This document shows positions 37,538 to 51,943 of a DNA stretch of 64,000 nt, piece by piece; positions within the stretch are counted from its first letter, which is position 1, and the number at the start of each line of letters is the position of its first letter. This DNA is from Acidobacteriota bacterium (GTDB taxonomy: Bacteria > Acidobacteriota > Vicinamibacteria > Vicinamibacterales > UBA2999), in assembly GCA_016210845.1 (NCBI GenBank), contig JACQTK010000142.1, positions 11,479 to 75,478 of the forward strand, read 5' to 3'. The notes below the pieces were generated by a model. The model made no database searches, had not been told where the DNA came from, and was given only the letters and a program-made list of their open reading frames with translations. A program made the position numbers and the translations under genes.

Positions 37538-37759
37538 CAGAGACGCTGTGACACAGGTGCTACCAACCCCGAGAATCGGCCTGAATAATCTGCGCGTGTG
37601 GCGTCGATTTTCGGGGTTCGTAGCACAGAGGCACGGAGAACTCTTTGCGCAGGGCGCTGCGGGCCCAATCCGCCAGTGTTGGCCGCCTGCATGGCTACCT
37701 CGGGACGGCGGTCCAATCAATGCTGGTTCGGCCGCTGGAACGAACATCGGGGCTTTGGT

Positions 37760-37993: not shown

Positions 37994-37996
37994 TCC

Positions 37997-38305: not shown

Positions 38306-38327
38306 GCGCGATCGTTGACAGCGAGAC

Positions 38328-38735: not shown

Positions 38736-38892
38736 GGGCGGTTCCTGCGATCTACGATACCGCCGGCTGAGGCTCCCTGTCTAACGGGCGGCCCGACATC
38801 GAGGCGCGGCAGCCGACGAGCCGCAAGCGGCGGAAGGGCACGTCCAGCGCGCGTTCCCGCGCGGCTCGCGGCTGAGGGTCATCGCCTCCATC

Positions 38893-40461
38893 GTGCAAGA
38901 GTCGCCTGCGGTGAGCCGCGGGGCGCCTCATACCTTGGTGCCGCTTGACAGATCCGATCAGTCACGTATATTCGCAGGAGCGGTGAGAAGCAGGGACACT
39001 CTCCTCGTCCTGGTCGCGGCCGTTGCACTCGGCGTCGTCGTCGCCACTGGCGTGGCAGCGCAGTCGCCTCCCGCCGACCGGACCGCGCAGCAGCACGCCG
39101 TTCTCCGGCTGCAGAACGACGTGGCCGCGCTGGAGCTGTTCAGGCCGGCCTTCCCGTTCTGGCGCCACATCTTCACCATCCCCGATGGCGCCGTGATCTA
39201 TGGCAGCGCGATCGACGGCCGCCTGCTGGCCACGTTCCCCCTCAACGGCAATTGGGTGCGCGACGCCGTCTGGAGTGACGACTCGCTGGCGGGCGCGCTG
39301 GCAGGGCACCGCCTCCCCCCGAGGCTGTCGCAGAGGCGCGACGAGGTGGCGCGGCTGCTCCAGGAATCGGCTGGCCCCGTGCTGCACAATGCCACGCGCG
39401 GCCTCTCGCTCCTGCCCAACGAGCGTCGCTACGCCGCGTTTCTGGACGAGTGGGGCGCCATCTACGAGCGCTTCGCCCTGCCCGCCGACATCGGCCTGGC
39501 GCAGGCGGTCGTCGAGTCCGGGCTCAGCGGCAGGGCTCGCTCGGAGGCGAGGGCGATCGGCTTCTGCCAGTGGCTGATCGCGAACTGGAACCGGCTGAAG
39601 CGCCTCTCTCCGCACGTCATCGAGGGCTACAACCAGACGACGCAGGCGCCGTACTGCGCCGCGTACCTCACCATCCTCGCCACCAAGTACGGCAGCTTCA
39701 TTCCCGCCCTCTCGGAGCACCACACCGGGGGCACCAACGTCGGCCGGACGCTCATCAACGGCGAGCGGCTTGGGGGTGTGGACGTCCGCGAGCGGTACTT
39801 CCTCGGCGCCGAGTTCGCGCGCGACCTGCGCAGCCTGTCTCCGGGCCGGTACCGGGACGTCTATGGAAGCTACGGCCCGCGGTCGTTCTTCTATGCGGAA
39901 ATGGTGTTCGGCAACATGGCGAACGTGACGCGCCTGCGGACGGAGGTGCCGCGGTCGAAGATCTTCGCGATGCGGACGCGCCGCGCCCTGCCGCTGGCCG
40001 AGGTCACGCGGCGGACGGGGCTGTCGACCGACGAGGTGCGGCGGTTCAACCCAGCGCTCGTCCGGAGCGTCCCCGCGGGCGCCACCATCTACCTGCCCCG
40101 GTACGTCGAGGCGTTCGGCTCCGACGTCTCGTTCTGGCACCGGCCGCCGAGCGCGGCGTACTCGCAGGCGCTCGAGGAGTTCGTCCGACTGGATGTGCCG
40201 CTGGAGCGGTGGGACGATCGGGCGTTCGATGCGGTACTGACCGACTTCCGCAGGCGGTTCGCCGCCACCCGGACGGAGGAGGGCACGGTGATGGCCACGA
40301 CGCTCGCCTTCGTGCTGGAGGATCGCCGCACCAGCGGGCAGGCGCAGATCCTCGCCGACTTCCGGACCAACCCGCGCGTGCTGCGGCTGTTCGACCGGGC
40401 GCGCATGGAATGGGACAGCTTCCTTCTGTCCAGCGCGGCCGTGCCCACGAGTCTCGAGTGA
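38893..40461 (+). CDS. membrane-bound lytic transglycosylase (SLT domain plus LysM-like domain)
   Basis: SLT catalytic region GLAQAVVESGLSGRARSEARAIGFCQW and a LysM-like LAEVTRRTGLSTDEVRRFNPAL...GATIYLP. The start is ambiguous (GTG at 38893 or 38983). Confidence 0.75.
   Translation: MQESPAVSRGAPHTLVPLDRSDQSRIFAGAVRSRDTLLVLVAAVALGVVVATGVAAQSPPADRTAQQHAVLRLQNDVAALELFRPAFPFWRHIFTIPDGAVIYGSAIDGRLLATFPLNGNWVRDAVWSDDSLAGALAGHRLPPRLSQRRDEVARLLQESAGPVLHNATRGLSLLPNERRYAAFLDEWGAIYERFALPADIGLAQAVVESGLSGRARSEARAIGFCQWLIANWNRLKRLSPHVIEGYNQTTQAPYCAAYLTILATKYGSFIPALSEHHTGGTNVGRTLINGERLGGVDVRERYFLGAEFARDLRSLSPGRYRDVYGSYGPRSFFYAEMVFGNMANVTRLRTEVPRSKIFAMRTRRALPLAEVTRRTGLSTDEVRRFNPALVRSVPAGATIYLPRYVEAFGSDVSFWHRPPSAAYSQALEEFVRLDVPLERWDDRAFDAVLTDFRRRFAATRTEEGTVMATTLAFVLEDRRTSGQAQILADFRTNPRVLRLFDRARMEWDSFLLSSAAVPTSLE
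40351..40461 (+). repeat. left copy of the 111-nt direct repeat (last 36 codons plus stop of the lytic transglycosylase gene)
   Basis: Aligns with 51833-51943. A 56-nt core is identical (40369-40424 = 51851-51906), and both copies end in a TGA stop. Confidence 0.9.
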
Positions 40462-40483
40462 GCCGGACCGCGCTCACGCGCCG

Positions 40484-41310
40484 TATCCGATCGAGACCCA
40501 CCCGCAGCGCGAGCAGGCCGACGAGGAACAGCAGCATCTGGAGCGGGAGGACCCACCGGGCCCACTGGGGCCAGGGGATCCCGGCCAGCGCGACGACGCC
40601 CATCAGCACCGCGTTGGTGGGCACGATCATGTTCGTGAATCCGTCGCCCATCTGAAACGCCAGGACGGCCGCGTGACGCCCACCGGATCCGAGAGCGGCG
40701 CCATCAGCGGCATCGTGAGCGCCGCCTGCCCGCTGCCGGACGGCACGAAGAAGTTGATCGCGGTCTGGGCGGCGAACATCGCCATGGCCGCCGTCGCCGA
40801 GTTCGTGCCCTCGAGCGCCGAGGCCATGGCGTGCAGAATCGTGTCGATCACCTGGCCGCCCTGCAGCACGATCAGAATGCCGCGCGCGAGCCCGATGAGC
40901 ACCCCCGTCGGGGCGAGCTGACGCACGCCGTCCATGAAGGCGGCGGCCGTGCCGTTGCCGTCGAGCCCGCCGGCCGCGCCCATGATCACGCCGAGCGCGA
41001 TGAAGAGCGCCGCGATCTCGACGATGTACCAGCCGAAGCCTCCCTGCCCCGCCGGGAGCACGCCCCACACGAGCACCGCGAGACCCGCGCAGAAGATCGC
41101 CAGCACGGCCTGATGCCGCCGCGTGAACGCGGCCTCGAGGCCCGTCAGGTGCAGGCCCTCGCGCCGCTTCACCTCGTCTATCGCATAGGTCGGGCTCTTC
41201 ATCGGGTCCCGCCGCACGCGGTGGGCGTGCCTCATCACGAAGGCGATGGTGAGGGCGGTCGTGACGAGCCAGAGGCCGGCGCGGAACCCGGCGCCCGAGA
41301 ACGGCGGCAC
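40484..41310 (-). pseudogene. YfcC-family membrane transporter fragment (5'-truncated, frameshifted)
   Basis: ORF 40627..41310 (…FFVPSGSGQAALTMPLMAPLSDPVGVTR) loses frame near 40675. The continuation AAVLAFQMGDGFTNMIVPTNAVLMGVVALAGIPW... is in the frame of track ORF 40046..41332. Only about 280 of the ~460-500 aa expected remain. Confidence 0.6.
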
Positions 41311-41521
41311 GCCCGCGATCTCCTGGGCTCAACGCCTTCCGGCATCACGGACACGATCACTACCTCTCGCTCGCAACATGGACAAACCACTTGTCGTGCT
41401 CAACGCCTTTCGGCATCAGAGCCTCCCACACGCGCAATATGCGTCACCCACCCTGACAACGCGTGTCAGGGTGTCCAGAGGAATCTGGCGGGGTGTGGTA
41501 GCGGCGAGTATAGTAGACGTA

Positions 41522-41845
41522 ATGTCCATCCCGCTGCCCGCCCAAGCGCCTCCGATTCGCGAAACCGACGGCGCTCTCCGTGTCGGCCGGACCGGCGTGA
41601 CACTCGAAACGGTGCTCTGGGCCTTTCAGCAAGGCGCCACCCCCGATGACATCAAGAGACGGTTTCCCTCGCTCGAACTGGCTGATATCTACGACGTGAT
41701 CGCCCACTATCTGCGTCATCGCGACACCGTCGATGCGTATCTGCGAGAACGCGAACAGGTGTATCGCGAGACGACCGAGCAGCTCAAGAAGGAATTCCCG
41801 CAAGACGATCTTCGGGCACGTTTGCTCGAACGCGTCAAGCGGTGA
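41522..41845 (+). CDS. DUF433-domain protein (putative antitoxin)
   Basis: RVGRTGVTLETVLWAFQQGATPDDIKRRFPSLELADIYDVIAHYL is a typical DUF433 core. 4-nt overlap with the downstream gene. Confidence 0.65.
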   Translation: MSIPLPAQAPPIRETDGALRVGRTGVTLETVLWAFQQGATPDDIKRRFPSLELADIYDVIAHYLRHRDTVDAYLREREQVYRETTEQLKKEFPQDDLRARLLERVKR

Positions 41846-42198
41846 TCGCGTTCCTGTGGGACGAGAGCGCCAATGAAGACGTGTTGCGCGCCTGGCGGCA
41901 CGACATGCCCAACTGCGACGTCCTTACCGTTCATGAGGCGCAGCTCTCCGGGGTCAGCGACGACGAGATCGCCGACTGGGCGCGCGCACATGATCGTGTC
42001 ATCGTGACCCAGGACCGCACCACGATGCCCGGCGTCGTCGTCCGTCGCATACGGTCTGGACAATTCGTACCCGGGATCGTGGTGATGGACTTGACACAGT
42101 TGTCGCCAGGCGCCGCGGCAGAGGAGTTGGCCCTGATCGCAGAGGCAAGTCTCCCCGGCGAGCTGGCCAATCGCGTCGTATTCCTCCCGCTGCGCTAG
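41842..42198 (+). CDS. DUF5615/PIN-like protein (putative toxin partner of DUF433)
   Basis: 118 aa, FLWDESANEDVL...DDEIADWARAHDRVIVTQD, in the usual DUF433-DUF5615 gene order. Confidence 0.55.
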   Translation: MIAFLWDESANEDVLRAWRHDMPNCDVLTVHEAQLSGVSDDEIADWARAHDRVIVTQDRTTMPGVVVRRIRSGQFVPGIVVMDLTQLSPGAAAEELALIAEASLPGELANRVVFLPLR

Positions 42199-42207
42199 AG
42201 AGAGGCC

Positions 42208-42693
42208 TCAGCGCGAGACTCGGACTTTGTCTGTCTTGGCCAGCCCCGCTCGCCTACCGTCACCAGCCGCAAGCAGCCCCCGAGCGCGATAGGCACTCAG
42301 CGCAGCTTCGAGCTCGGCCGCCACGGCGCGGCCGAGCGCCGCGGGCGCCAGCACCTCCGCCTCAGCCCCGAACTGCATGACCCATCGCTGAATCTCGCCC
42401 AAGCCGGCAATCCGCATCCGTAGCACACATCCGCCATCGAGCAGACCTTCAACACGCGCGGTGCTGTGCCACTTGCGCTCCCGTATCCACCGTGCCTGCC
42501 TGGGCGTGAACCGAATGACGACGTCTACTGGGCGCCCGCCCTTCTCGATCGCAAAGGCCGCGGCGAGGTACGCGCGCGGATCGAAGTCGCTCGGAATCTC
42601 GAAACTCTCGGTGGTGATCGTGACACGCCGAATGCGGTGCACTGCGAAGTCTCGGACCGCCGCGCGCCTCTCGTCCCAGGCTGCTACGTGCAT
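42208..42693 (-). pseudogene. WYL-domain regulator, C-terminal part only (HTH and first half missing)
   Basis: HVAAWDERRAAVRDFAVHRIRRVTITTESFEIPSDFDPRAYL is the distal WYL-domain pattern, followed by a WCX-like tail. There is an in-frame stop upstream and only ~200 bp before the divergent STAND gene. Confidence 0.55.
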
Positions 42694-42896
42694 AGGCTGC
42701 GTCGCCGGCTTCGACGGCCCGGTGCCATCGCGCCGCCATCTGCGCGCCGCGCCGCATCCTCACCCAGGGATGTAGACGTTTCTTGCGAGCCTTTGCCATA
42801 CTCTGGATTTCCGGCGGGCAATTGTACTTCTTGACGAGCAGTTCGCCGCCGCGCGCCGGTCTGGCTCTGAGCGGACTCTTGTACACAGCGGGTGAG

Positions 42897-45665
42897 ATGG
42901 ACGGATCTGGGCGTACGCGAAACGAATGGCGTCACCTGCTGGCTGGCCAACTACGCCGTGCCAAACGAAGACTCAAGGAAGAACTCGACGAGTCCACTTG
43001 GCGTTCCTCTAGGTACGGAGCCGCCAAGCTGCCAGAGGTTTTGAGGGGTTTTCCCCAACTCCACGACGACTGGCTTTCTTGCCGGAGGTGCAACGACCAG
43101 TCTGCCCGTGATTTCATCGAAGGTTGTTTGCTGAGGGACACTGACGGACCACGGCGCACGGCCGACAGAGTGATCTCCGCGAATTACCAGTCCTCCTTTC
43201 GAAGCGACAGCGACATCCTGCCCCGGCGACATTTTTGGTGTCAGGATCTTAGCACGTTGCCAGTCATCGAGGACTGGCACACTGGTCGAGAGATCGAGCT
43301 CGCCGCAATTAAGGATCTCATTGACAGCGTCCGTGTGCGGGGGGGCGTCGTCGGAATTGTCGGACGTGGCGGCACGGGGAAAAGTGTCTTTGCCGGTCTG
43401 CTGGTTCATCACCTCTATGGGCACCGCGAAAGTGTCGTATTCGTAGACGCCAAGAAGTACCCCACTGCCGAACAGATTCTCCAACAACTGTTGCGCCAAC
43501 TCGGTGCAGCGGAATCTTCTGTACGGGGTGTTTCTGACTTGCGGGATTCGCTGGAGCGGTGGGTCGAAGGTCGACAGTGGACCTTCCTGGTTGATGCTGT
43601 GAACGAAATGCGGCCTCCTTTTTCGACGGCCTGGTTGCCGCGGCTGACTCCTGGCAACGTCATGGTCGTCGTTCTTCAGCCCCAGGAGTGGCTGATTCAG
43701 GCGATGGACTTCTGGGGAACATGGGCGCGGTACCCCCTGCGGAAGATGGCGCGATCGAGCGTGCGCAAGTGGCTGAAAGCCGCGCACCCGGTTGAGTACG
43801 ATGAGCTCGAGCGGCTGGGCGGATCCGCGATCGATGAAATGCTCGAACGGACGGATGGGTACTTGCCGGACGTGAGTCAATACTCTGAACGTCTTGTCCG
43901 GGAGATACGGGCTGCGCGCGCGAGCGGCCGCGATCCGCATTACGTCGACTTCGATTTCTCGGTGCCCGGATTGCCCGAGCGGGAGCGAGGTGGGCAACTC
44001 TGGAATCGCATACTCGCCGGCGCCGATGACGCCGAGATGATGAAGGAGTTCCTGTCATACCTCTTCTGCGCCCGGGGTCTCCCAGGCATCGTGATGGCAA
44101 CGCTTCTCTCGCGACGATTTGGTCGTTACGTGTCGATTGATGACGTTCAGGACTTGAGGCGAAACGCCAGGGGGGCGATCGATGAAGGCCCGGTGCTGCA
44201 CCACACCGTGTGGTTGTACCTGGCCTCCGTCCTTGACCAGCAGGACATCGCGAAGCGGCATCGCGACATCTTCAAGGCTCTCAGGCGCAGCGACGCGTAC
44301 TGGGTGGAACAGGCTACAACGCACTTGATGGTCTCCGACATCTCACATCACGAACGCATGACCGCACTGACCGATCCCGAATTGCTCTCTCGACGTCTGC
44401 GAACGCCCGGATTTGGCGTCATTCACGGAGAGGCACTCAGGAACGAGTTCTCCCGCGCCGGAACCGAGGAAGAGCGGCGCAAGGTGGCCGCCAGGCTAGG
44501 ATGCCGGTGGCGCAGAGAGGTCGAGCGACGCCCCTTTTCCGCAGCAGAGTACGACGAGCTCTTGGATCTTCTCGAGGTCGCTGGACTGCCAGGATTCGCC
44601 AGTCTGGCCGCGTTCGTCGCCGACCGCGCCTTTCGACGTACGACGAAACCTAAGTATCTCCAGCGCTGTGGTTGGATTCGCTATCAGGCGCTGGACCAGT
44701 GGGACAGGGCCCTTCGCGACATGGTCAACGCGTCCGAGCTGTTTGGCGACACGTCGGTCGAGGCGGCCAGGTGCAACCGGCTTCGGGCCTTGGCGCTCTT
44801 CGACATGGGCCGACGCGAGGAGGCCAAACGCTGGGCGCGAGCCAGCCTCAAGACGTTCGACAAGCTCGGGTATAGGCGCGATGCAGCGCGCGCGCGGGAA
44901 ACCCTCGGAGTCATCCTCGATGCTGAGGGGCGATGGGATCTCTCTGTTGAACGCTATAGAGACGCGGAACGCCAGTTCGACAGAGATCCGGTGGACAAGC
45001 TGCGAGTGCTGCTGAATCGCTCAATTGCAACACTGTTTCTCGAGGGAATCGAACGAGCCTGGGCGGATCTAAAGGCCATTGAGAACCCCATCATGGACAC
45101 CGGCGATCATCAGCTTGCCGACTATTTCCACGTAAACTGCTGCGTGATCGCACTCCTTCGAGAGAATCCCGCGGAGTTTGGGCGCCATGCCGAGCGGGCC
45201 GCCGGAACGACAGAGGATTGGCTTCGCGACTCACTGCACGAGAACCGAGCCGTTGCGGTCTGGCGATTCGACAAGAATCCGTCAGCAGCACTCAAGGAGT
45301 TCAACCGGCTCAAGCGCAATTTCGCCAGACAGAAGGATGCCTGGGGCCTTATCGACAACAGTCTCAATGCAGGGTTCGTCCATGTTGATTGCGGTCGACA
45401 GACCGAGGCCCGCCGTAACTTCACGCTCGCCTACAAGCTGAGCAGGGCGCGTCACTACCCTGTGGGATACGGTCTTGCCTGGAGAGGACTGCAACTGTGC
45501 AATGAGATGCCAACGGGCGACGCACGAATGGCGAGGTACTGGTATGACAAGCGCCTCGACCACCTTTTTGGACCACGAATTCCGTTCGTGCCCCTGTACG
45601 TGCTTCTTGCCGAATCCTTGAGTATGGACGTACGGGGCTATGGCCTTTACGCAGTTGAGCCTTGA
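42897..45665 (+). CDS. STAND-class P-loop NTPase with a C-terminal TPR-like array and an uncharacterised ~190-aa N-terminal domain
   Basis: Walker A GIVGRGGTGKSVFAG and Walker B WTFLVDAVNE. The C-terminal ~350 aa are helical repeats (…ARCNRLRALALFDMGRREEAKRWARASLKTFDKLGYRRDAARARETLGVIL…). The track start at 42783 is a TTG, so I prefer the ATG at 42897. Confidence 0.75.
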   Translation: MDGSGRTRNEWRHLLAGQLRRAKRRLKEELDESTWRSSRYGAAKLPEVLRGFPQLHDDWLSCRRCNDQSARDFIEGCLLRDTDGPRRTADRVISANYQSSFRSDSDILPRRHFWCQDLSTLPVIEDWHTGREIELAAIKDLIDSVRVRGGVVGIVGRGGTGKSVFAGLLVHHLYGHRESVVFVDAKKYPTAEQILQQLLRQLGAAESSVRGVSDLRDSLERWVEGRQWTFLVDAVNEMRPPFSTAWLPRLTPGNVMVVVLQPQEWLIQAMDFWGTWARYPLRKMARSSVRKWLKAAHPVEYDELERLGGSAIDEMLERTDGYLPDVSQYSERLVREIRAARASGRDPHYVDFDFSVPGLPERERGGQLWNRILAGADDAEMMKEFLSYLFCARGLPGIVMATLLSRRFGRYVSIDDVQDLRRNARGAIDEGPVLHHTVWLYLASVLDQQDIAKRHRDIFKALRRSDAYWVEQATTHLMVSDISHHERMTALTDPELLSRRLRTPGFGVIHGEALRNEFSRAGTEEERRKVAARLGCRWRREVERRPFSAAEYDELLDLLEVAGLPGFASLAAFVADRAFRRTTKPKYLQRCGWIRYQALDQWDRALRDMVNASELFGDTSVEAARCNRLRALALFDMGRREEAKRWARASLKTFDKLGYRRDAARARETLGVILDAEGRWDLSVERYRDAERQFDRDPVDKLRVLLNRSIATLFLEGIERAWADLKAIENPIMDTGDHQLADYFHVNCCVIALLRENPAEFGRHAERAAGTTEDWLRDSLHENRAVAVWRFDKNPSAALKEFNRLKRNFARQKDAWGLIDNSLNAGFVHVDCGRQTEARRNFTLAYKLSRARHYPVGYGLAWRGLQLCNEMPTGDARMARYWYDKRLDHLFGPRIPFVPLYVLLAESLSMDVRGYGLYAVEP

Positions 45666-46671
45666 GGACATGCGCTGCATCAATCCTGCTCGCGTGGCGT
45701 ACGCGCATGACCTGATGGCAGACGAGTACGACCAATGCGACGACCTCTGGTACCCGTGGCTCTTCGCTCAGATCCACGATTTCATCGTCGCTGACTTAAG
45801 CAGGGACCCACCCGATTGTAGGGTCGCCATTGATGCAGGATGTGGAACTGGCTTTCAATCGTTTCTTCTTGCTCAAGCGGGATTCCAAGTACACGCCTTC
45901 GATCTCGCGAACGCACTTGTGGCGCGCGCGCGTGACAAGTCCGACACTTTCGCGGTAACACCCTTGCAGTCACCCCCCCTTTTTCAGGCCGACGTTGACC
46001 TGGCTTGGCTCGCAAACCATCACAAGAGGCTACGCGAGGCACTCGAATCGCTGCGACAGGGCCGTCGCGTCGTTCCACCGCGCTTCCGTACGGGAGACGT
46101 GACGACGTTCGACTACGCCAGTCTCGTTCCGAATGTCATTGTGTGCTGTGGGTCGGTGCTGAGCTTCGTTGACGATTACTGTGCCGTTCTTCAGAAGATG
46201 GCCCACGCCTTGGCACCTGGCGGACGCATTTATCTCGAAGTTGAGCAGCGCGTAAACGGCGACTTGGTATGGCCGGCCATTGACAATCTACTGGGTGGCC
46301 GCATCGGATACCAGCAGACTTGGCGCGGCTTGCTGCGAAACCTATTCGCTAGACCGGGACGGGCAGTCCGAATCGATTACCCTTTTGAACTCCATACCGG
46401 CGAGGAGGTCATCCTTCCGATGTGGTTGTTCTCCGTCTCCGAACTACATCGACTGTTCGACTCCGTGGACCTCCGGGTTCGCGACAGATTGGGAATCCAC
46501 CACGTAACGAACATCCTGCCGAGTCCCTGGTTGCACCGAAGTCCCCCATCGAGGCGGACGATGACGATCTTCGAGCCGTTACGCGTTGCCGACGGCAGCC
46601 TTGGACGAGTATGGCCGTTTGCCCGACTGGGATGTAGCGTGATGTACTCGTTGGAAAAACCCCTCAGCTGA
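45640..46671 (+). CDS. class I SAM-dependent methyltransferase
   Basis: Motif I AIDAGCGTGFQSFLLA and post-I HAFDL. It overlaps the STAND gene's 3' end by 26 nt; an alternative ATG lies at 45670. Confidence 0.75.
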   Translation: MAFTQLSLEDMRCINPARVAYAHDLMADEYDQCDDLWYPWLFAQIHDFIVADLSRDPPDCRVAIDAGCGTGFQSFLLAQAGFQVHAFDLANALVARARDKSDTFAVTPLQSPPLFQADVDLAWLANHHKRLREALESLRQGRRVVPPRFRTGDVTTFDYASLVPNVIVCCGSVLSFVDDYCAVLQKMAHALAPGGRIYLEVEQRVNGDLVWPAIDNLLGGRIGYQQTWRGLLRNLFARPGRAVRIDYPFELHTGEEVILPMWLFSVSELHRLFDSVDLRVRDRLGIHHVTNILPSPWLHRSPPSRRTMTIFEPLRVADGSLGRVWPFARLGCSVMYSLEKPLS

Positions 46672-46791
46672 CCTCACCAGAGGGCTCGCGTCCGAGGCCC
46701 TCCCTGCAAAGTCGATCCCGGCCTCTGCGTCTGCTGCGTCTGGGATCCTTTGGTGCAATGGTTCCGCGACCTCTCAATAGGAGTGGAACCA

Positions 46792-47112
46792 GTGATTCAG
46801 CACACCTCCGAAGCTCAGGCCCCGAAGTCTTCCAGACGCGGACGGCCCCCGCTGCCAGCGGAACGCAAACGTGTACACCGGTTCAATTTGCGCGTCACGC
46901 GGGCTGAACTGGACGCCATCTATCTCGCCGCCATTCGACACAGGGTTGACGCCACATGCCTCGTGCGGGCCGTCATCCGGCAATTCCTGGTCAGGCCCGG
47001 TGACCTGGATGCAGGCAACGAGCTGTCCGTTGCGGCCGAACACCTGCAGACACGCCCACCAGAGCCCACGGCAACTCGAATCAAGATCACATGTCCAAAC
47101 TCGACCGGCTGA
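46792..47112 (+). CDS. ribbon-helix-helix DNA-binding protein (MobC/CopG-like)
   Basis: RRGRPPLPAERKRVHRFNLRVTRAELDAIYLAA resembles the MobC/RHH N-terminal pattern. The GTG at 46792 lies 8 nt after TAGGAG. Confidence 0.5.
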   Translation: MIQHTSEAQAPKSSRRGRPPLPAERKRVHRFNLRVTRAELDAIYLAAIRHRVDATCLVRAVIRQFLVRPGDLDAGNELSVAAEHLQTRPPEPTATRIKITCPNSTG

Positions 47113-47167
47113 TTGCGGTGCCCGGAAACTCTCCTTCTCTCGCGGCAGACGCAGAATCGGAGACCCT

Positions 47168-47527
47168 ATGAAACAGACGCAGCTTCGATTGCACCGTCGG
47201 TTGTGCATGAATTGCCATCAGCGCGACGCGAAGTTCCGATCCCGCGGCGGACGGGTGAGGAGCGATCGGACCCACCCCCGCTTGTGCTTCGCCTGCTACC
47301 GATCTCTTCGCGACCGGGTCCGTGCGATGCGACTGGTGGCGACCGGGAGGGCGATACATCCATGGGCCCCAGGTTGTCAGGAACGCAAGCTGTCTTCCGT
47401 CAACAACAGTAGGAGAAGTCGCCATGCTTCTGATCGCCCTCTTGTTGGTCCAGCCCCTCAGCGCCCCGTTGGGCGCGGTGTCCCCAGGGCCCCCGGCCAC
47501 TATGCCCGGCGTCGTCAGACACGCTGA
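47168..47527 (+). CDS. possible small zinc-ribbon protein
   Basis: MKQTQLRLHRRLCMNCHQRD...PRLCFACYRSL has two CxxC pairs, with GGAGA 5 nt upstream. The 3' third overlaps the next gene by 104 nt and looks like off-frame sequence. Confidence 0.3.
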   Translation: MKQTQLRLHRRLCMNCHQRDAKFRSRGGRVRSDRTHPRLCFACYRSLRDRVRAMRLVATGRAIHPWAPGCQERKLSSVNNSRRSRHASDRPLVGPAPQRPVGRGVPRAPGHYARRRQTR

Positions 47528-48200
47528 TCAATCGGCTCTCGCGCTCTCGCCCGATTCTAGGCCACTGAACGAGGAAGACACCCGGCTGCGTCGCCTCTAT
47601 ACGACGGCGAAGGTCGACGACATCGCGCGCCGCTATCGATCCGCCGGGCGGGTGCGCGACCTGTCGCCCACCAGCCGCGTGCTGCTCCTCCAGGTGCTCC
47701 TTCCGGAACACGCGACGAGCGTCCTCGAGGCCTTCGCACCGATTCTCGCCGACGAGGAGCTGGCCTGCGTGGCGCTTGTCGCGGTGCTCCGGGCCAACGC
47801 GCCAATCCGGCCGTCCGACACGGTGGCGCGGCGACTGGCGCGGACGAGCGACGGCCGACTGGCCATGACGCTGAACACCCGCAACGTGCCACCAGCCCCG
47901 CGGCCGCTGGCCTCGCTGCGTGCCGCCCGCCTCGCCGTGATCGAGGAGTACTTTTTCAAGCAGGACTCCCCGGACGCGCAGGCCGCCGCGCTCGAACGGC
48001 TGGTCCATCTCACGATGGACGCATTCAAGACCGGCCAGTTCACGCCGAACGCGCCGGCGCCGCCCATTCGCGTCGCGCCCAGAAACGTCACGGACCTTGC
48101 GCTCAAGCTGGCCGTGCTCCCATACGTGACACACTCCAACGAGTTCCTGGCGCTCTTCGACGCCGTGGTCAACGGCACACCGCCCGGAGGAGACCGATGA
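47424..48200 (+). CDS. secreted protein of unknown function (island operon gene 1)
   Basis: Strong RBS (AGGAGAAGTCGCC-ATG) and an MLLIALLLVQPLSAPLGA signal-like N-terminus. No family recognised. Confidence 0.6.
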   Translation: MLLIALLLVQPLSAPLGAVSPGPPATMPGVVRHADQSALALSPDSRPLNEEDTRLRRLYTTAKVDDIARRYRSAGRVRDLSPTSRVLLLQVLLPEHATSVLEAFAPILADEELACVALVAVLRANAPIRPSDTVARRLARTSDGRLAMTLNTRNVPPAPRPLASLRAARLAVIEEYFFKQDSPDAQAAALERLVHLTMDAFKTGQFTPNAPAPPIRVAPRNVTDLALKLAVLPYVTHSNEFLALFDAVVNGTPPGGDR

Positions 48201-49051
48201 GAAACATCGCAGTCACTCTCTTCTTCATCGTCGTCATGGCATTCGGCCTGCCGGGGCCCGCCTCGGGCCAGAGCAGCCGCGCGGTGGGCATCGCCGTCGA
48301 CGCTGCCCAAGTCGAGTTCGACAACGCGCGCGCGCAAACGGTCGCCGCGCAGGAGCGCTACAGTCAGCAGTCCCAGGAGCTTGCCACCCGCGTGGCGCGC
48401 GGCGAAATTCCCCTCAGCCGCGCCTCGCAGCTGCAGCGTTTCTTTCAACTCGACATCGTTGACGCCCAAATGGACGAAGCGCTGGCCTATCTGCGTGTGA
48501 TCGACTCCCGAACCCTGGACTACCGAACGAAACGCGACGAATACACGAAGGCCATCAACGACGTTCGCGGCATCCTGAACCGCAACAACGTACAGCGGCA
48601 GCAGCTCGCCCGGGAGCTCCGCGAGCGCCGGGGCCCGGCGGTGCTGGTCGGCCGGGAATACACGGCTCTCACCGGCGGGCGCATTGCGGGTATCGGCGAC
48701 GATCAGCAGATGCTCAACGAGATCGAGGGCTTGCTCAAGCGGTACAGCGCCTCGCAGATCGAAGCCGAGAACGCGTTGAGCGCTCTCCAGCGCGAGATCG
48801 ACGTCATCGACCGTAACCTCCCGCTCCTGGAGGCCCGACGCGGGATCGCCAACCAGCTCGTCGAACTGCTCCGAATGAGGGCCATCCTGTTGCGGGCCGG
48901 GGCCGGCGCGGGCGCGAGCGAACCGCTGCCGGATGTGCTGACCTTGGAGCCCCTTCCGTCCCTGTTTGGACCATCGCCAGGCACGCCACTCTTTGGCGAG
49001 GACGTCGTCGATCCCGACGCCCTTCGACGGCGCCTCGAGGAAGTACAGTGA
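48197..49051 (+). CDS. secreted coiled-coil protein (island operon gene 2)
   Basis: ATGA overlap with gene 1, an MRNIAVTLFFIVVMAFGLPGPASG signal peptide, and long heptad-like helical stretches. Confidence 0.6.
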   Translation: MRNIAVTLFFIVVMAFGLPGPASGQSSRAVGIAVDAAQVEFDNARAQTVAAQERYSQQSQELATRVARGEIPLSRASQLQRFFQLDIVDAQMDEALAYLRVIDSRTLDYRTKRDEYTKAINDVRGILNRNNVQRQQLARELRERRGPAVLVGREYTALTGGRIAGIGDDQQMLNEIEGLLKRYSASQIEAENALSALQREIDVIDRNLPLLEARRGIANQLVELLRMRAILLRAGAGAGASEPLPDVLTLEPLPSLFGPSPGTPLFGEDVVDPDALRRRLEEVQ

Positions 49052-49380
49052 ACGTCGTCAGCCTCTGGACCAACGCGCTGGTCGGCGTCGGCCCTGTGTT
49101 CCACGTCGTGTTCACCGCGTATCTGTACGCCTGGGCGTTCGCGCTGACGCGCGAGAGCTTCGCGGTGGCCCGCATGCTGGCCGCCCACGTCGGCCTGTGG
49201 GGCATCGTGGGGACCTACCTGAGCTTGATCGTCTCCTTGCAGATCGACCTAGCAGACGACGGCGGCCTGAAGACCTTCCAGAAGCTGCTGTCGTTCGGGC
49301 CCGAAAGCAGCCTCATCGGCCTCACCTTGTTCCTGGCGATGAACGTGCTGCATCACTTCGTCCAGGAGAGCGACACATGA
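49048..49380 (+). CDS. small 3-TM membrane protein, possibly a minimal ExbB/TolQ/MotA-like channel subunit (island operon gene 3)
   Basis: GTGA overlap. Three hydrophobic segments. HVGLWGIVGTYLSLIVSL resembles the ExbB/TolQ LGLLGTVxG motif. This is a by-eye match only. Confidence 0.45.
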   Translation: MNVVSLWTNALVGVGPVFHVVFTAYLYAWAFALTRESFAVARMLAAHVGLWGIVGTYLSLIVSLQIDLADDGGLKTFQKLLSFGPESSLIGLTLFLAMNVLHHFVQESDT

Positions 49381-49805
49381 CACTCTCGGCGCGCATTCAC
49401 CAGCCGCTGCCACGCAAGACCGACGCGTCCGCGGACGGTCTACTGTCGTCGTTCCTGACGGACACGATCCTGGTCCTGGCCATTGCGCTCCTCGTCTACA
49501 TTCCCGCCGCGCACAACCGGCTGGCACTCCAGCAGCGCCAAGCGGCGGCCAGCGCCGACAGGTCGGCCACACGCGAGCCGCTCCGTCTCGACGTCATCGG
49601 CGAGAACGTGCTCGTCGGCACGCCCGCCCGGTCGGCCGCGTCGCTGTCGGCCGCGGAACGGGCGGCGTACAGCGGCCGCACCGGTCTGATCCGGGTGTAC
49701 GGCAGCAGCATTTCCGCGGCCGCCATGACCGAGCTCTCCCGCGTCTATCACGAGCTCGGCCTGACTTCGTGGGCGTTTCACTTCGAATCGGAGAGTCTGC
49801 GATGA
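49377..49805 (+). CDS. single-TM protein, possibly ExbD/TolR-like (island operon gene 4)
   Basis: ATGA overlap. One TM (FLTDTILVLAIALLVYIP) followed by a ~90-aa periplasmic domain (LRLDVIGENVLVG...LIRVYGSS) in the ExbD arrangement. By-eye match only. Confidence 0.45.
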   Translation: MTLSARIHQPLPRKTDASADGLLSSFLTDTILVLAIALLVYIPAAHNRLALQQRQAAASADRSATREPLRLDVIGENVLVGTPARSAASLSAAERAAYSGRTGLIRVYGSSISAAAMTELSRVYHELGLTSWAFHFESESLR

Positions 49806-50314
49806 AGATATTGATGGCGTTCCTGTTGCTGCTGGCCCTGCTCGCCATGGCGGCCGCCGGTGGACATTACTACTTACAGCCGTATCTACAGTCCCATTCG
49901 CCTGGCGACACATCGCACGCACCGGGATCAACCGCGGCACGCCAATCGGGTCCCGTTGATCCGAACCGGCTGTTCGAAACGATTCCACCGCTTGCGGGCA
50001 GCCCGCCGCCACCTGCGCCTCTGCCCGACGCCAAAGGCGGAGCGTTCATTCTCGAAGCGCCCTCGCTGGCACCGCCCGCGCCCGTATCGCCTGCGACGGC
50101 GCCGGCGGACCGTCTGGATCTGCCGGTGGAACCTGGGCCGGATCTGTTGGTGGAGCCGCGGTTCATCGACCCGTCGGATCTCGAGACCCCCCCAGAGGTG
50201 CTCGAGCGGCGCATCGTGAACCGGGCCAAGGAGATCCTGGACAAGGTGCCGATCCTTCCCGTTCCCTTGGCCGACGTCCCGACGAACGAACAGCCGGCGG
50301 CGCCCGGACGATGA
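49802..50314 (+). CDS. membrane-anchored proline-rich protein with TonB/TolA-like architecture (island operon gene 5)
   Basis: ATGA overlap. N-terminal TM (MKILMAFLLLLALLAMAAAGG), then Pro-rich PPPPAPLP...PPAPVSPATAP. Confidence 0.55.
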   Translation: MKILMAFLLLLALLAMAAAGGHYYLQPYLQSHSPGDTSHAPGSTAARQSGPVDPNRLFETIPPLAGSPPPPAPLPDAKGGAFILEAPSLAPPAPVSPATAPADRLDLPVEPGPDLLVEPRFIDPSDLETPPEVLERRIVNRAKEILDKVPILPVPLADVPTNEQPAAPGR

Positions 50315-50346
50315 CGTTCGAATTCGCCGAAAGGAGCTGAAGGCCA

Positions 50347-51126
50347 ATGCGTGAGTACTACCTTCCCTGGTTCCTTCCTATCCTGTTTACGGTCGCTCTG
50401 GTCTTCCACTACGTGGGAGCGGCGCTCGACTACCTGACTCCCGAGCCATCCGCGTTGGTGGACATCGGTCCCCTGGGCCGCCAGATGCCGCCGCCAACGC
50501 CGGCCGACCCCGCGGAGACCGAGCCTGAGCCGATAGAGACACAACCGGCTTCCCAACCTCGGGCCCCTCGCTCCCAGGCGGCCAAGGCCGCCGAGCGGTC
50601 GGGCGCCACGACGAGCCGCCCGGCGGGCCCCGAGCGTCCTGACGTCCACCGCACAACGGAGGCATTGGCAGCCAATGGACCGTCGCAGATCGTCGTCGTC
50701 GGAGACGAGGACGGCATACACAAGCATGAGAGAGCGCTCCCGGCCGCGCCCGCTCCGCCCGCGGCCGACCCCAAGCCCCAGCTCCCGACGGCCGCCCAGT
50801 TGGGCGAGATGGAATTCCACATCGATGCCTCACCTGGCTCGATCGAGGACCTCGTCCGCAATGTCGACGGCGCCTTCATGCGGGGAACCCGTCTGTACGA
50901 CGTCCACGGCAATCCGCTGGCCTCGACGGCGAGGTTCACGAGCGGGTCCAAGCTGATCGTGTTCTACGCACTGGATGGCGGGTTGTCAGTCGTGTTGCCG
51001 AACCGGGTTGTCGACGAAGTGCTGCAGCGCGTGGCGCTCAAGTCGGGGAACGGAACGCTACGACGCGTCCGCGTCCTGGCCCGATTCGATCCGTCGGGCG
51101 TTCTAAGAGACGTCGATGTTCTCTAA
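50347..51126 (+). CDS. membrane-anchored proline-rich protein with a C-terminal globular domain (island operon gene 6)
   Basis: AAAGGAG RBS, TM (WFLPILFTVALVFHYVGAAL), a Pro/Ala-rich spacer and a ~110-aa C-terminal domain. Confidence 0.55.
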   Translation: MREYYLPWFLPILFTVALVFHYVGAALDYLTPEPSALVDIGPLGRQMPPPTPADPAETEPEPIETQPASQPRAPRSQAAKAAERSGATTSRPAGPERPDVHRTTEALAANGPSQIVVVGDEDGIHKHERALPAAPAPPAADPKPQLPTAAQLGEMEFHIDASPGSIEDLVRNVDGAFMRGTRLYDVHGNPLASTARFTSGSKLIVFYALDGGLSVVLPNRVVDEVLQRVALKSGNGTLRRVRVLARFDPSGVLRDVDVL

Positions 51127-51802
51127 TCGCCTGGCCCTGGCACTCGCCCTGCTCGCGTCCCCGGCCGTGACGTCGGCGCAGTCGAGCGTGCCTTCGCACC
51201 TCTTGGAACTTGCCGATCGCGACCTCGAGCAACTGATCTCCGCCCGTGCCGATGGAATCCACAGACGTGCCAGCAGCCGTTATGGCTCCACGTTCTCAAC
51301 CGCCCCGCCCACGACCGTCCGGCGGCGACCGGAAGCATCGATCCGGACGAACCCCGCATCACCCGCGATCTCTGCAGTAACGAGCGCAGCGCCTTCCACA
51401 CCTGCCGCGACCTCGCTCAGGATCCAGGCGGTCCAGGTCGCCGAGACGCTGGGAATGCCGGCCCACCTCGCGCTGGCCCTCATCAGCGTCGAGTCGGGCT
51501 GGAAGCCGCGCGCCGTGTCGCCAAAGGGAGCGATCGGGTTGACCCAGGTGATGCCCGCCACGGCCAAGGGGATGAACGTCACCTGCGATCTCTTCGAGCC
51601 GCCGTGCAACCTGCACACCGGGCTTACGTACCTCCGGCGCATGCTCGACCAGTTCAAGGATCCGCGACTTGCGCTGGCGGCGTACATCGGCGGCCCTGGC
51701 GTCTTCTCGAAACGCTATTCAGAGGCGACGCGCCAGGAAATCGAGAGCTACGTGCGGAATGTGATTGTCACGGCAAACCAGTTGGCGCCGGCTCGGCAAT
51801 GA
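51116..51802 (+). CDS. secreted SLT-domain lytic transglycosylase (island operon gene 7)
   Basis: Signal peptide MFSNRLALALALLASPAVTSAQ. SLT motifs LALALISVESGWKPRAVSPKGAIGLTQVMPATA and AAYIGGPG. Confidence 0.75.
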   Translation: MFSNRLALALALLASPAVTSAQSSVPSHLLELADRDLEQLISARADGIHRRASSRYGSTFSTAPPTTVRRRPEASIRTNPASPAISAVTSAAPSTPAATSLRIQAVQVAETLGMPAHLALALISVESGWKPRAVSPKGAIGLTQVMPATAKGMNVTCDLFEPPCNLHTGLTYLRRMLDQFKDPRLALAAYIGGPGVFSKRYSEATRQEIESYVRNVIVTANQLAPARQ

Positions 51803-51832
51803 GAGTGTCACTCACACACCTTCGACGCCGGG

Positions 51833-51943
51833 CTGGCCGACTGCCGCACGAACCCGCGCGTGCTGCGGCTGTTCGACCGGGCGCGCATGGAATGGGACAG
51901 CTTCCTCCTCTCCGGCGCCGCCGACACCACGAGCCTCGAATGA
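51833..51943 (+). repeat. right copy of the 111-nt direct repeat (orphan 3' end of the lytic transglycosylase gene)
   Basis: Encodes LADCRTNPRVLRLFDRARMEWDSFLLSGAADTTSLE*, versus LADFRTNPRVLRLFDRARMEWDSFLLSSAAVPTSLE* at 40351-40461. Confidence 0.9.

What the first reader, a model, noticed from the sequence alone, without database searches (positions are those of the whole stretch)
40351..51943. 11.4-kb mosaic island bracketed by a 111-nt direct repeat of a gene's 3' end, with no recognisable integrase
The last 36 codons plus stop of the lytic transglycosylase gene (40351-40461) are repeated at 51833-51943. A 56-nt core is identical, and the flanks are synonymous-like or diverged. This is the classical signature of an element that integrates into a gene's 3' end and carries a replacement copy. 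Between the repeats lie a YfcC transporter fragment, a DUF433/DUF5615 pair, a truncated WYL gene, a lower-GC STAND-methyltransferase-RHH block (two sampled lines at 57% GC) and a seven-gene envelope operon. I found no integrase, recombinase or transposase. Either the element is immobilised or it uses an unrecognised mechanism.
Basis: partly seen in the sequence, partly recalled or inferred. Interest (0 to 1): 0.75.

Follow-up and report, generated by a model that had tools for sequence, protein, structure and literature searches.

The report
Orphaned gene tail in mosaic variable region
The 111-base repeat is real, but it is most likely a leftover second copy of a gene's tail, created by recombination in a hypervariable, pseudogene-rich stretch of an uncultured Vicinamibacterales genome, and not the attachment sites of a mobile island that moves by an unknown mechanism.

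Summary
Bases 40351-40461 (last 36 codons plus stop of a conserved SLT/LysM-like gene, "LT") recur at 51833-51943 at 88% identity. A 56-nt core is identical (40369-40424 = 51851-51906), and the 13 mismatches are clustered non-randomly (P = 7e-4). No integrase, resolvase, DDE or HUH enzyme is detectable in any frame.

A relative's contig (L017, ~80-85% nt identity) is collinear with both flanks. It shows that the YfcC/DcuC fragment beside the left copy is native backbone (GC3 0.94, own stop codon 12 nt from the LT stop). The real synteny breaks are at 41329/41330 and 52814/52815, about 980 nt to the right of each repeat. The right copy lies inside compositionally foreign DNA, between a rare seven-gene operon and two further foreign-looking remnants.

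Among 82 LT loci from relatives, none has a second tail copy or any of this cargo. The operon occurs elsewhere without an LT tail.

Best reading: an orphaned 3' end of a closely related LT allele, left by homologous plus illegitimate recombination, as in "3'-end displacement". An integrase-free single-crossover insertion remains possible. Ordinary genome plasticity; low interest.

The parts
38893..40461 (+). LT gene: conserved Vicinamibacterales protein with a divergent SLT-like domain and a LysM-like segment. The true start is probably downstream of 38893.
   Evidence: 2338 homologues, best 75% identity. All 41 aligned members hit PF01464 weakly (best 9.8e-6); the window protein scores 0.012 at residues 194-286. 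The family profile hits a LysM protein, 8rhe. GC3 0.90, like the backbone.
40351..40461 (+). Left copy of the 111-nt repeat: the functional last 36 codons plus stop of LT.
40369..40424 (+). 56-nt core identical to 51851-51906.
   Evidence: longest identical run; P = 7e-4.
40474..41329 (-). YfcC/DcuC-family transporter pseudogene. It keeps the 3' ~285 codons, with its native stop at 40474-40476 (12 nt from the LT stop) and at least two frame disruptions. The first ~199 codons are missing. This is native backbone, not cargo.
   Evidence: PF03606 hits in two frames. 82% nt / 84.5% aa identity to L017 DcuC 13393-14251, at the same syntenic position. Stop codon homologous to L017's. GC3 0.94. Break at 41329/41330.
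41327..41418 (.). Two copies of a 21-nt direct repeat (41327-41347 and 41398-41418, 95% identical). The first starts exactly where the YfcC homology ends, marking the left synteny breakpoint.
   Evidence: (family D8).
41522..42198 (+). DUF433 (41522-41845) and DUF5615 (41842-42198) gene pair, of toxin-antitoxin type.
   Evidence: PF04255 1.5e-8 and PF18480 1.3e-10. GC3 0.69 and 0.81.
42208..42693 (-). N-terminally truncated WYL/WCX regulator fragment.
   Evidence: WCX 1.3e-20. Only the last 25 positions of the WYL profile are present. PADLOC WYL / Cas3c-associated models match.
42783..46671 (+). Low-GC block: STAND NTPase with TPR repeats (42783-45665) and a class-I SAM methyltransferase (45640-46671).
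   Evidence: AAA_16, NB-ARC, TPR_12 and Methyltransf_25. Weak mad8/mad2 matches. GC 57-61%, GC3 0.66-0.68. No plasmid match.
46750..47112 (+). Unverified, and not part of the conserved operon.
   Evidence: No hit in Pfam, NCBIfam, PADLOC or PDB. Not homologous to the first gene of the L005 cluster.
47322..51802 (+). Seven-gene operon of unknown function: 47322-48200, 48197-49051, 49048-49380, 49380-49805, 49769-50314, 50347-51126, and the SLT transglycosylase 51116-51802.
   Evidence: Collinear homologues in L005, with partial ones in L006 and L099/L100 (32-60% aa). Only SLT has a family (PF01464, 2e-21). The SLT orthologues are 206-221 aa and end at the same motif, so the stop at 51800-51802 is native. 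GC3 0.72-0.93.
51803..51832 (.). 30-nt linker between the SLT stop and the orphan tail. Inferred illegitimate junction, with no homology to LT or to anything else in the window.
51833..51943 (+). Right copy: orphaned LT 3' end (36 codons plus stop) with no 5' part and no start codon. The family-invariant Phe (F490) is Cys here.
   Evidence: F490 is invariant in 41 sequences. GC3 0.89, unlike its neighbours. It is closer to the window's own tail (arms 76% nt) than to any of 81 orthologues (max 67%).
52008..52241 (-). 77-aa helical ORF of unknown function, convergent with the orphan tail.
   Evidence: Only weak hits. GC3 0.76. No relative in any fetched locus.
52278..52651 (-). Arylesterase-type SGNH hydrolase pseudogene with ~85 central residues deleted and a frame shift.
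   Evidence: The N- and C-terminal pieces align to 3dci_A residues 23-84 and 170-230. They lie in different frames.
52815..53252 (-). B12-binding (methylmalonyl-CoA mutase small subunit-like) gene. Synteny with the relatives resumes at its stop codon; this is the right breakpoint (52814/52815).
   Evidence: PF02310 1e-28. blastn to L011-L017 starts at 52817-52834. Alignment.
37467..38892 (+). Separate 1.4-kb lower-GC insertion between the 381-aa gene and LT. It carries HicB-like (37598-37993) and HicA (37997-38305) genes and is absent from L001 and L017.
   Evidence: Pfam; synteny; GC 62-64%.

Best explanation
The right copy is an orphaned 3' end of a second, closely related allele of the LT gene. 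It is a recombination relic, not an attachment site.

The stretch between the conserved PQQ/381-aa/LT block and the B12-binding/biotin-carboxylase/methylmalonyl-CoA block is a hypervariable region that holds different genes in every relative. In this lineage the ancestral content (<-YfcC <-ABG transporter <-OmdA-like, as in L017) was mostly replaced, in several steps, by foreign pieces: a DUF433/DUF5615 pair, a WYL fragment, a low-GC STAND-methyltransferase block and a rare seven-gene operon.

One step involved DNA from a close relative that carried its own LT allele with a different downstream neighbour. One end of the exchange was homologous. The other was an illegitimate join at 51832/51833. 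This left 36 codons of the second allele stranded 11.5 kb downstream of the resident gene, as in homology-facilitated illegitimate recombination or '3'-end displacement'. The 56-nt identical core is a crossover/heteroduplex tract or a later gene-conversion tract between the two homeologous copies.

Shown: the repeat and its statistics; the synteny breakpoints; the native status of YfcC'; the mosaic composition; the absence of recombinases; the absence of recurrence.

Inferred: the recombination mechanism, and which side was the incoming DNA. That polarity is unresolved.
For: 1. L017 is collinear with the window at 32534-37466, 40480-41329 and 52822-63012 (76.8-85% nt, most blocks ~79-85%). Its order is 371aa-> <-DcuC <-ABG <-OmdA <-B12. 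So YfcC' beside the left copy is backbone. Its stop codon aligns with L017's, its GC3 is 0.94 against 0.89-0.95 for the backbone, and it is 84.5% aa identical to L017, like the intact neighbours.
2. The breakpoints are sharp at 41329/41330 and 52814/52815, not at the repeats.
3. Everything in 41330-52814 has atypical GC3 (0.66-0.85; one small operon gene, op3, 0.93) except the tail copy (0.89). The segment contains three pseudogenes: YfcC', WYL' and SGNH'.
4. Homology between the copies ends exactly at the stop codon, and each copy has a different convergent neighbour. That is expected for two alleles from different genomic contexts.
5. The arm differences are mostly synonymous (8 of 12 differing codons). 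The arms are 76% identical, while no orthologue exceeds 67%. The source was therefore a functional LT gene of a very close lineage.
6. The invariant F490 is Cys in the right copy, so that copy is not under LT constraint.
7. No recombinase in any frame of 57 aa or more within 40300-52900, in Pfam or PHROGs. No tRNA. No Rfam family.
8. 0 of 82 LT loci have a second tail copy. LT neighbours differ in nearly every relative, and the neighbours of B12 also differ.
9. The mechanism has precedent: orphaned 3' regions formed by HFIR or C-terminal displacement (PMC5361080, read; PMC3240628, abstract listed).
Against: - The relic model does not by itself predict an identical 56-nt core within arms that are 24% diverged. 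It needs a crossover within the tail or an extra gene-conversion event.
- No same-species genome was available. The exact core has 0 hits in the genome and metagenome collections. So no allelic state, whether an empty site or a donor arrangement, was observed directly.
- L017 itself lacks LT at this position, with only a 10-nt spacer between the two stop codons. The inference that LT-> <-YfcC is the ancestral pairing in the window's lineage therefore rests on parsimony, using L001 (381aa-LT adjacency) together with L017.
- Polarity could not be resolved. The LT mosaic test was uninformative.
Confidence: 0.55

Rival explanations
1. Integrase-free single-crossover (Campbell-type) insertion. A circularised chromosomal fragment from a close relative, [LT tail - YfcC' - cargo - operon - SLT], recombined through RecA with the resident LT tail. 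The two repeats then do bracket the incoming DNA, and each repeat is a host/donor chimera. The host's original downstream neighbours were the 77-aa ORF and the SGNH gene.
For: - One event explains both the direct repeats and why identity is confined to a central tract flanked by diverged arms.
- Homology ends exactly at the tail limits.
- A donor with an LT-> <-YfcC arrangement would put YfcC' back at the syntenic position automatically.
- No recombinase is needed.
Against: - It requires the host to have first lost YfcC-ABG-OmdA and gained the 77-aa ORF and SGNH gene, whose GC3 (0.71-0.78) is unlike the backbone.
- It requires recombination on only ~111 nt of ~76-88% identical sequence.
- The cargo is a patchwork with its own pseudogenes.
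- No recurrence in 82 loci.
Confidence: 0.2
2. One reading: a site-specific integrative island. Its attP mimics the LT 3' end and its att core is the 56-nt identity. Its integrase has either been deleted (immobilised element) or belongs to an unrecognised family among the unannotated ORFs.
For: - An identical core with diverged, largely synonymous arms restoring the gene's 3' end is the textbook att pattern.
- Eight ORFs between the repeats (the RHH-like ORF, the six non-SLT operon genes and the N-terminal region of the STAND protein) have no family assignment.
Against: - No tyrosine or serine recombinase, DDE or HUH enzyme in six frames.
- The DNA adjacent to 'attL' is a syntenic host pseudogene, and the DNA after 'attR' is not the host neighbour.
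- Breakpoints are offset ~980 nt from the repeats.
- The LT tail is not a recurrent target (0 of 82 loci).
- The tail is hypervariable in the family, which makes it a poor conserved target.
- The operon occurs elsewhere without the tail and is not on plasmids or viral contigs.
Confidence: 0.12
3. Old intragenomic duplication of the LT tail, with the right copy decaying as a pseudogene, followed by a recent gene conversion that homogenised 56 nt.
For: - The right copy resembles the window's own tail more than any orthologue's.
- F490C at an invariant site suggests relaxed constraint.
Against: - The arm differences are enriched for synonymous changes (8 of 12 differing codons), unlike pure neutral decay.
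- Homology ends exactly at the stop codon instead of including flanking DNA.
- The neighbouring pseudogene YfcC' is barely decayed, which suggests recent events, yet the arms are 24% diverged.
Confidence: 0.07
4. Assembly artefact. The source appears to be a metagenome-assembled genome. The contig could be a chimeric path through co-occurring strains, or a mis-traversed repeat. The identical run of 56 nt equals k+1 for a k=55 de Bruijn assembler.
For: - A 100%-identical B12-binding protein is recorded on a 79-kb contig of an 'Acidobacteria bacterium' MAG, so the source is probably a MAG.
- 56 = 55 + 1 is a suspicious number. This is my own inference; the assembler is unknown.
Against: - The junction of SLT plus linker to the left arm of the tail (51832/51833) and the YfcC'/cargo junction (41329/41330) are not at any repeated k-mer in the window. 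At least one real genome must therefore carry the orphan tail after SLT.
- A 56-nt repeat is spanned by ordinary 100-150-nt reads.
Confidence: 0.06

Closest known systems
Orphaned 3' regions left by C-terminal (3'-end) displacement in rhs, CDI and T6SS effector loci, proposed to arise by homology-facilitated illegitimate recombination (Jackson et al. 2009 and de Vries & Wackernagel 2002, as cited and discussed in PMC5361080; HFIR also in PMC3240628)
   Same: - A full-length gene is followed downstream by a promoterless fragment homologous only to its own 3' end.
- New DNA lies between the two.
- No integrase is involved.
- One homologous end and one illegitimate end.
   Different: - There is a single orphan, not an array.
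- LT is not a polymorphic toxin, and there is no immunity-gene logic.
- 11.5 kb of unrelated mosaic cargo separates the copies.
- No recurrence in 82 related loci.
- Which side was incoming is unresolved.
Integrative elements and genomic islands that insert into the 3' end of a tRNA or protein-coding gene and carry a replacement 3' end (att-flanked, integrase-encoding). From memory: ICESt1/ICESt3 at the fda 3' end, SCCmec at orfX/rlmH.
   Same: - Direct repeats made of a gene's 3' end.
- An identical core with diverged arms.
- The interrupted gene stays intact.
- Foreign, lower-GC DNA nearby.
   Different: - No recombinase.
- The repeats do not coincide with the synteny breakpoints.
- The DNA next to the left repeat is a native host pseudogene.
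- The cargo is not a coherent element.
- The target is not reused in relatives.
Hypervariable regions and defence islands between conserved core-gene blocks, remodelled by flanking homologous recombination
   Same: - Fixed flanks (381aa/LT and B12-binding) with different content in each relative.
- Toxin-antitoxin pairs, a WYL regulator fragment, a STAND NTPase and a methyltransferase.
- Pseudogenes and compositional patchwork.
   Different: - No complete known defence system was identified; only weak mad2/mad8 and WYL matches.
- The duplicated gene tail is an unusual by-product.

Membership tests
att-flanked integrative element / genomic island (tyrosine or serine recombinase) | Direct repeats (attL/attR) derived from the target gene's 3' end | tested here: met
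   111-nt repeat, 88% identical, with a 56-nt identical core.
att-flanked integrative element / genomic island (tyrosine or serine recombinase) | Element-encoded integrase or recombinase at or near one end | tested here: not met
   142 six-frame segments of 57 aa or more across 40300-52900 were scanned. There were no integrase, resolvase, DDE, rve or HUH families in Pfam or PHROGs. The only 'transposition' hit is a weak phrog_296 match (2.9e-4) that was not assigned to a segment; it probably reflects the AAA-type NTPase (inference).
att-flanked integrative element / genomic island (tyrosine or serine recombinase) | The repeats coincide with the insertion boundaries relative to an unoccupied site | tested here: not met
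   Against L017 the collinearity breaks at 41329/41330 and 52814/52815. The YfcC' fragment after the left repeat is syntenic backbone. No same-species empty site was available.
att-flanked integrative element / genomic island (tyrosine or serine recombinase) | The same target is used repeatedly in related genomes | tested here: not met
   0 of 82 LT loci with an identifiable stop codon have a second tail copy or island genes (61 have at least 0.5 kb downstream, 40 at least 2 kb, 23 at least 5 kb).
Orphaned 3' end by displacement / HFIR (rhs-, CDI-, T6SS-like) | An intact gene plus a downstream promoterless fragment homologous only to its 3' end | tested here: met
   The right copy comprises 36 codons plus the stop. 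It is preceded by a stop codon and a 30-nt unrelated linker, with no homology upstream.
Orphaned 3' end by displacement / HFIR (rhs-, CDI-, T6SS-like) | The orphan derives from a diverged functional allele, not from local copying | tested here: inconclusive
   The arms are 24% diverged with 8 of 12 differing codons synonymous, and homology ends at the stop codon with different neighbours. The 111 nt give little statistical power, and no donor allele was found.
Orphaned 3' end by displacement / HFIR (rhs-, CDI-, T6SS-like) | Variable toxic C-terminus with a cognate immunity gene; orphan arrays recur across strains | tested here: not met
   The LT tail has no toxin or immunity signature. There is a single orphan and none in 82 relatives.
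Transposon / IS-mediated insertion | A transposase plus terminal inverted repeats and a short target-site duplication | tested here: not met
   No transposase. There are no boundary inverted repeats. The only boundary feature is a 21-nt direct repeat at 41327/41398.
SLT lytic transglycosylase (PF01464), for the 522-aa 'LT' gene | The SLT domain scores above the Pfam gathering threshold | tested here: inconclusive
   The window protein scores 15.6 bits (E = 0.012) against a cut-off of 21.3. All 41 family members hit weakly, best 9.8e-6. 13 of the 120 listed homologues carry a precomputed PF01464 annotation.

The most novel reading that the evidence does not exclude
The 11.5-kb segment is a recombinase-free 'homology-hitchhiking' island. 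It carries a captured copy of the LT tail, whose 56-nt core lets it enter and leave the chromosomes of close relatives by host RecA-mediated single crossover. Alternatively, one of the unannotated operon proteins is a new kind of site-specific recombinase acting on that core. Either way the island would still be mobile within a Vicinamibacterales population.
Probability: 0.08. Interest if true: 0.6.

Novelty: new member of a known kind. Interest (0 to 1): 0.2.

Why it matters
It matters mainly as a cautionary example. A direct repeat of a gene's 3' end, with an identical core and no integrase, looks like a new integration mechanism. Comparison with a collinear relative shows a recombination relic inside a hypervariable region instead. 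It also documents a plasticity hot spot between two conserved metabolic gene blocks in uncultured soil Vicinamibacterales, and a rare, wholly uncharacterised seven-gene envelope-type operon. If the minority reading were true, it would show island mobility without a dedicated recombinase.

Tried and rejected
- Empty-site search: the exact 56-nt core has no match in 185,579 species-representative genomes or in the JGI metagenomes. No same-species comparison was possible.
- The contig of the 100%-identical B12 protein (P0242) could not be retrieved. It is probably the source genome.
- L010 turned out to match the other B12 paralogue's locus and was uninformative.
- The single-protein scan of genome contigs returned only 3 LT loci. 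The alignment-based metagenome scan gave 80.
- Right copy as part of an ancestral longer SLT gene: rejected. SLT orthologues are 206-221 aa and end at the same motif.
- LT tail as part of an operon-borne element: rejected. L005, L006 and L099/L100 carry the operon with unrelated downstream DNA.
- Core identity due to purifying selection: rejected. Orthologue core identity averages 52%.
- Functional RNA or terminator in the repeat: rejected. No Rfam hit, fold z-scores of -0.9 to +0.2, and no terminator at either copy.
- Hidden ~1-kb duplication, suggested by the 979 vs 982-nt offsets: rejected. There is no homology beyond chance.
- Mosaic test of the LT gene to find the polarity of exchange: uninformative, because the relatives are too distant.
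- Cargo on plasmids or viral contigs: none found. One search failed because of a coordinate error.
- Known defence systems: only weak mad2/mad8 and WYL matches.
- Homology between the 77-aa ORF or SGNH gene and anything near LT in relatives: none.

Full report
**1. The observation**

The alignment of 40301-40520 with 51783-52002 and the window-wide repeat search (family D5) confirm a 111-nt direct repeat, 40351-40461 and 51833-51943. It is 88% identical, with copies 11,482 nt apart.

The left copy is the last 36 codons plus TGA of ORF 38893-40461. The right copy also ends in TGA. It lies 10 codons after, and in frame with, the stop codon of ORF 51116-51802.

The 13 mismatches leave an uninterrupted identical run of 56 nt (40369-40424 = 51851-51906). 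Random placement of 13 mismatches gives such a run with P = 7e-4.

In the arms, 8 of the 12 differing codons are synonymous. Homology ends abruptly on both sides: the 80 nt upstream and 79 nt downstream are no more similar than shuffled sequence.

**2. What the genes are**

The organism is an uncultured member of Vicinamibacterales (Acidobacteriota), judging from the names on the homologues.

The "lytic transglycosylase" is a conserved ~500-aa protein of this order (2338 homologues, best 75% identity). It has a divergent SLT-like domain, sub-threshold in the window protein (E = 0.012) and weak in all 41 aligned relatives. It also has a LysM-like segment.

Pfam confirms the following:
- a DcuC/YfcC transporter fragment
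- DUF433 and DUF5615
- an N-terminally truncated WYL/WCX protein
- a STAND NTPase with TPR repeats
- a SAM methyltransferase
- an SLT domain in the last operon gene

The "RHH" ORF and six operon proteins match nothing in Pfam, NCBIfam or PADLOC; the RHH ORF and two of the operon proteins also gave no significant PDB sequence match (only a non-significant 0.41 hit for one).

All 142 six-frame stop-to-stop segments of 57 aa or more between 40300 and 52900 were scanned against Pfam and PHROGs. None matched an integrase, resolvase, DDE or HUH family. The window has no tRNA or tmRNA and no Rfam family.

**3. The decisive comparison**

The first intact gene to the right (B12-binding, 52815-53252) led to L017, part of a 921-kb metagenomic contig. 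L017 is collinear with the window in three blocks:

| Window | L017 | Content | nt identity |
|---|---|---|---|
| 32534-37466 | 19068-14268 | two PQQ propeller genes and a 381-aa gene | 79-85% |
| 40480-41329 | 14251-13393 | 3' part of DcuC/YfcC | 82% |
| 52822-63012 | 10401-60 | B12-binding, BCCP, biotin carboxylase, carboxyltransferase, acyl-CoA ligase, CoA-transferase, thiolase, methylmalonyl-CoA mutase | 77-84% |

In the window's orientation, L017 reads 371aa-> <-DcuC <-ABG transporter <-OmdA-like <-B12. So the YfcC fragment beside the left repeat occupies its ancestral position and orientation. Three further points support this:
- Its stop codon (40474-40476, 12 nt from the LT stop) is homologous to L017's.
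- Its GC3 (0.94) and codon usage match the backbone (0.89-0.95).
- Its 84.5% aa identity to L017 equals that of the intact neighbours.

It lacks the first ~199 codons and has frame disruptions.

Collinearity breaks sharply at two points:
- 41329/41330, where a 21-nt direct repeat begins.
- 52814/52815, the B12 stop codon, where four relatives stop aligning with one another as well.

The non-syntenic segment is therefore 41330-52814. It replaces about 3 kb of L017 (the 5' part of DcuC, ABG and OmdA). The right LT-tail copy lies inside this segment. It is followed by a 77-aa ORF and an arylesterase-type SGNH hydrolase whose central ~85 residues are deleted.

Every gene in the segment but one small operon gene (op3, GC3 0.93) has atypical GC3 (0.66-0.85), including the 77-aa ORF and the SGNH pieces (0.71-0.78). 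The LT-tail copy is another exception (0.89).

**4. Consequences for the att model**

An element integrated into the LT 3' end predicts that the native downstream neighbour follows the right repeat, and that element DNA follows the left repeat. The opposite is seen.

The model also predicts a recombinase, reuse of the target, and a coherent element. None of these holds:
- No recombinase was found.
- Of 87 LT loci gathered, 82 have an identifiable stop codon and 40 have at least 2 kb downstream. None has a second tail copy, YfcC, the 77-aa ORF, SGNH or any island gene next to LT.
- The tail is among the fastest-evolving parts of the protein, which makes it a poor conserved target.
- The seven-gene operon recurs in L005, L006 and L099/L100 at 32-60% aa identity. 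Each has a different downstream context and none has an LT tail. Its SLT gene natively ends where it does here.
- The operon and the STAND gene are absent from the plasmid collection, and the one operon protein that could be scanned (op2) is absent from viral contigs.

**5. Where the right copy came from**

Orthologue tails are 41-62% identical to the window's at protein level. At nucleotide level they reach at most 67% in the arms and 70% in the core. The two window copies are 76% identical in the arms and 100% in the core.

The right copy therefore comes from this genome's own LT or from a very close lineage. The core identity is not explained by selection.

Three observations favour a second allele from a close relative over a local duplicate:
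- the synonymous-rich arm differences
- the end of homology exactly at the stop codon
- the different convergent neighbours

Cys in place of the family-invariant F490 shows that the right copy is not maintained as LT.

**6. Mechanism**

The best-supported picture is recombination in a hypervariable interval. The neighbours of LT differ in nearly every relative, and so do the neighbours of the B12 gene.

An exchange with DNA from a close relative, homologous at one end and illegitimate at the other (junction 51832/51833), stranded 36 codons of a second LT allele. This is the logic of homology-facilitated illegitimate recombination and of "C-terminal displacement", which leaves orphaned 3' regions in rhs, CDI and T6SS loci (PMC5361080, read; PMC3240628, abstract listed).

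Two polarities fit equally well:
- Incoming [LT 3' part - YfcC' - cargo], which displaced the host tail together with its 77-aa/SGNH neighbours.
- Incoming [LT' tail - 77aa - SGNH' - B12 side], joined after SLT.

A test for mosaicism along LT was uninformative.

The identical core is a crossover/heteroduplex tract or a later gene-conversion tract. This step is inferred, not shown.

I rate it 0.2. A true site-specific element with a lost or unknown recombinase rates 0.12, an old internal duplication 0.07, and an assembly artefact 0.06.

**7. Loose ends**

The distance from each repeat to its nearest breakpoint is nearly the same (979 vs 982 nt). The two stretches share no homology beyond chance, so I treat this as coincidence.

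The 56-nt identity equals k+1 for k=55 assemblers, and the source is probably a MAG. The junctions at 41329/41330 and 51832/51833 are not at repeated sequence, so the orphan tail must exist in a real genome. Read mapping would settle this.

**8. Verdict**

The repeat is real and statistically non-random. The contents are as described, and there is no recombinase.

The island is not delimited by the repeats, and the att-site reading fails four of five defining tests. The region is a composite variable region with an orphaned gene tail. This is a known kind of recombination scar in a new organism, and it is of low interest beyond the rare uncharacterised operon it contains.

Noticed in passing
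window 47322-51802; L005 6477-10642; L006 1-991; L099 1-1090: Seven-gene operon with signal-peptide, transmembrane and Pro-rich proteins, ending in an SLT transglycosylase. No family match for six of the seven proteins in Pfam, NCBIfam or PADLOC. Only five full-length SLT orthologues exist among 5.8 billion proteins. Gene order is conserved in a 60%-GC contig of unknown taxonomy. Function unknown.
   Followed up: partly
window 4813-4856, 6458-6501, 6538-6588, 18148-18230; L001 ~10540-10600: Arrays of a 7-nt unit (CTGCCTA / AGTAGGC, 6-12 copies) at four intergenic sites. Two arrays form 46-nt inverted arms (98% complementary) that bracket 1.7 kb (4811-6590). The relative L001 has a different heptamer array (AGCCTAG)n just downstream of its LT gene.
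   Followed up: no
window 37467-38892: A 1.4-kb lower-GC insertion between the 381-aa gene and LT. It carries a HicB-like/HicA pair (37598-37993, 37997-38305) and a second HicB-like fragment on the other strand (38520-38735). It is absent from L001, where the LT start overlaps the upstream gene's stop, and from L017. A perfect 16-bp-stem hairpin (37492-37537) follows the 381-aa gene.
   Followed up: partly
L017 14257-14268 vs window 37467-40473: L017 has no LT gene between the 371-aa gene and DcuC. The two convergent stop codons are 10 nt apart. LT itself is therefore an insertion/deletion polymorphism at this position among close relatives, and its neighbours differ in almost all 87 loci examined.
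   Followed up: partly
window 40351-41329 vs 51833-52814: The distance from each repeat copy to the nearest synteny breakpoint is almost identical (979 vs 982 nt). The non-syntenic segment (11,485 nt) therefore nearly equals the repeat spacing (11,482 nt). No homology exists between the two stretches beyond the 111 nt, so this is probably coincidence.
   Followed up: yes
window 51800-51943: The orphan tail is in frame with the SLT gene, separated by one TGA stop and 10 codons. Read-through would append an LT-like C-terminus to the SLT protein. In-frame placement has a 1-in-3 chance, and nothing else supports read-through.
   Followed up: partly
window 41327-41347 and 41398-41418: A 21-nt direct repeat (GCTCAACGCCTTYCGGCATCA, 20 of 21 identical) spaced 71 nt apart. 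It lies exactly at the YfcC truncation point, upstream of the DUF433 gene. It could be an operator pair or the end of an inserted module.
   Followed up: no
window 9867-9902 / 34702-34737, 9968-10013 / 34804-34849, 2111-2158 / 58652-58699: Short intergenic repeat families of REP/MITE type. One has a hairpin (AACCAGCCAAGGGGCTCCGCCCCTTGATA, 97% identical copies) paired with a second motif ~100 nt away at both sites.
   Followed up: no
window 6047-6346 vs 52817-53116: Two paralogous B12-binding-domain genes (76% nt identity) in the same window, each next to methylmalonyl-CoA-type genes. L010 corresponds to the first paralogue's locus and contains an internal duplication of the domain (208-aa product), possibly an assembly artefact.
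   Followed up: partly
window 42783-46671: The low-GC STAND NTPase and methyltransferase pair weakly match the mad8 and mad2 models of the methylation-associated defence system in PADLOC (5.8e-5 and 1.3e-10). It may be a fragment or a distant variant of a defence system, sitting beside a truncated WYL regulator.
   Followed up: partly
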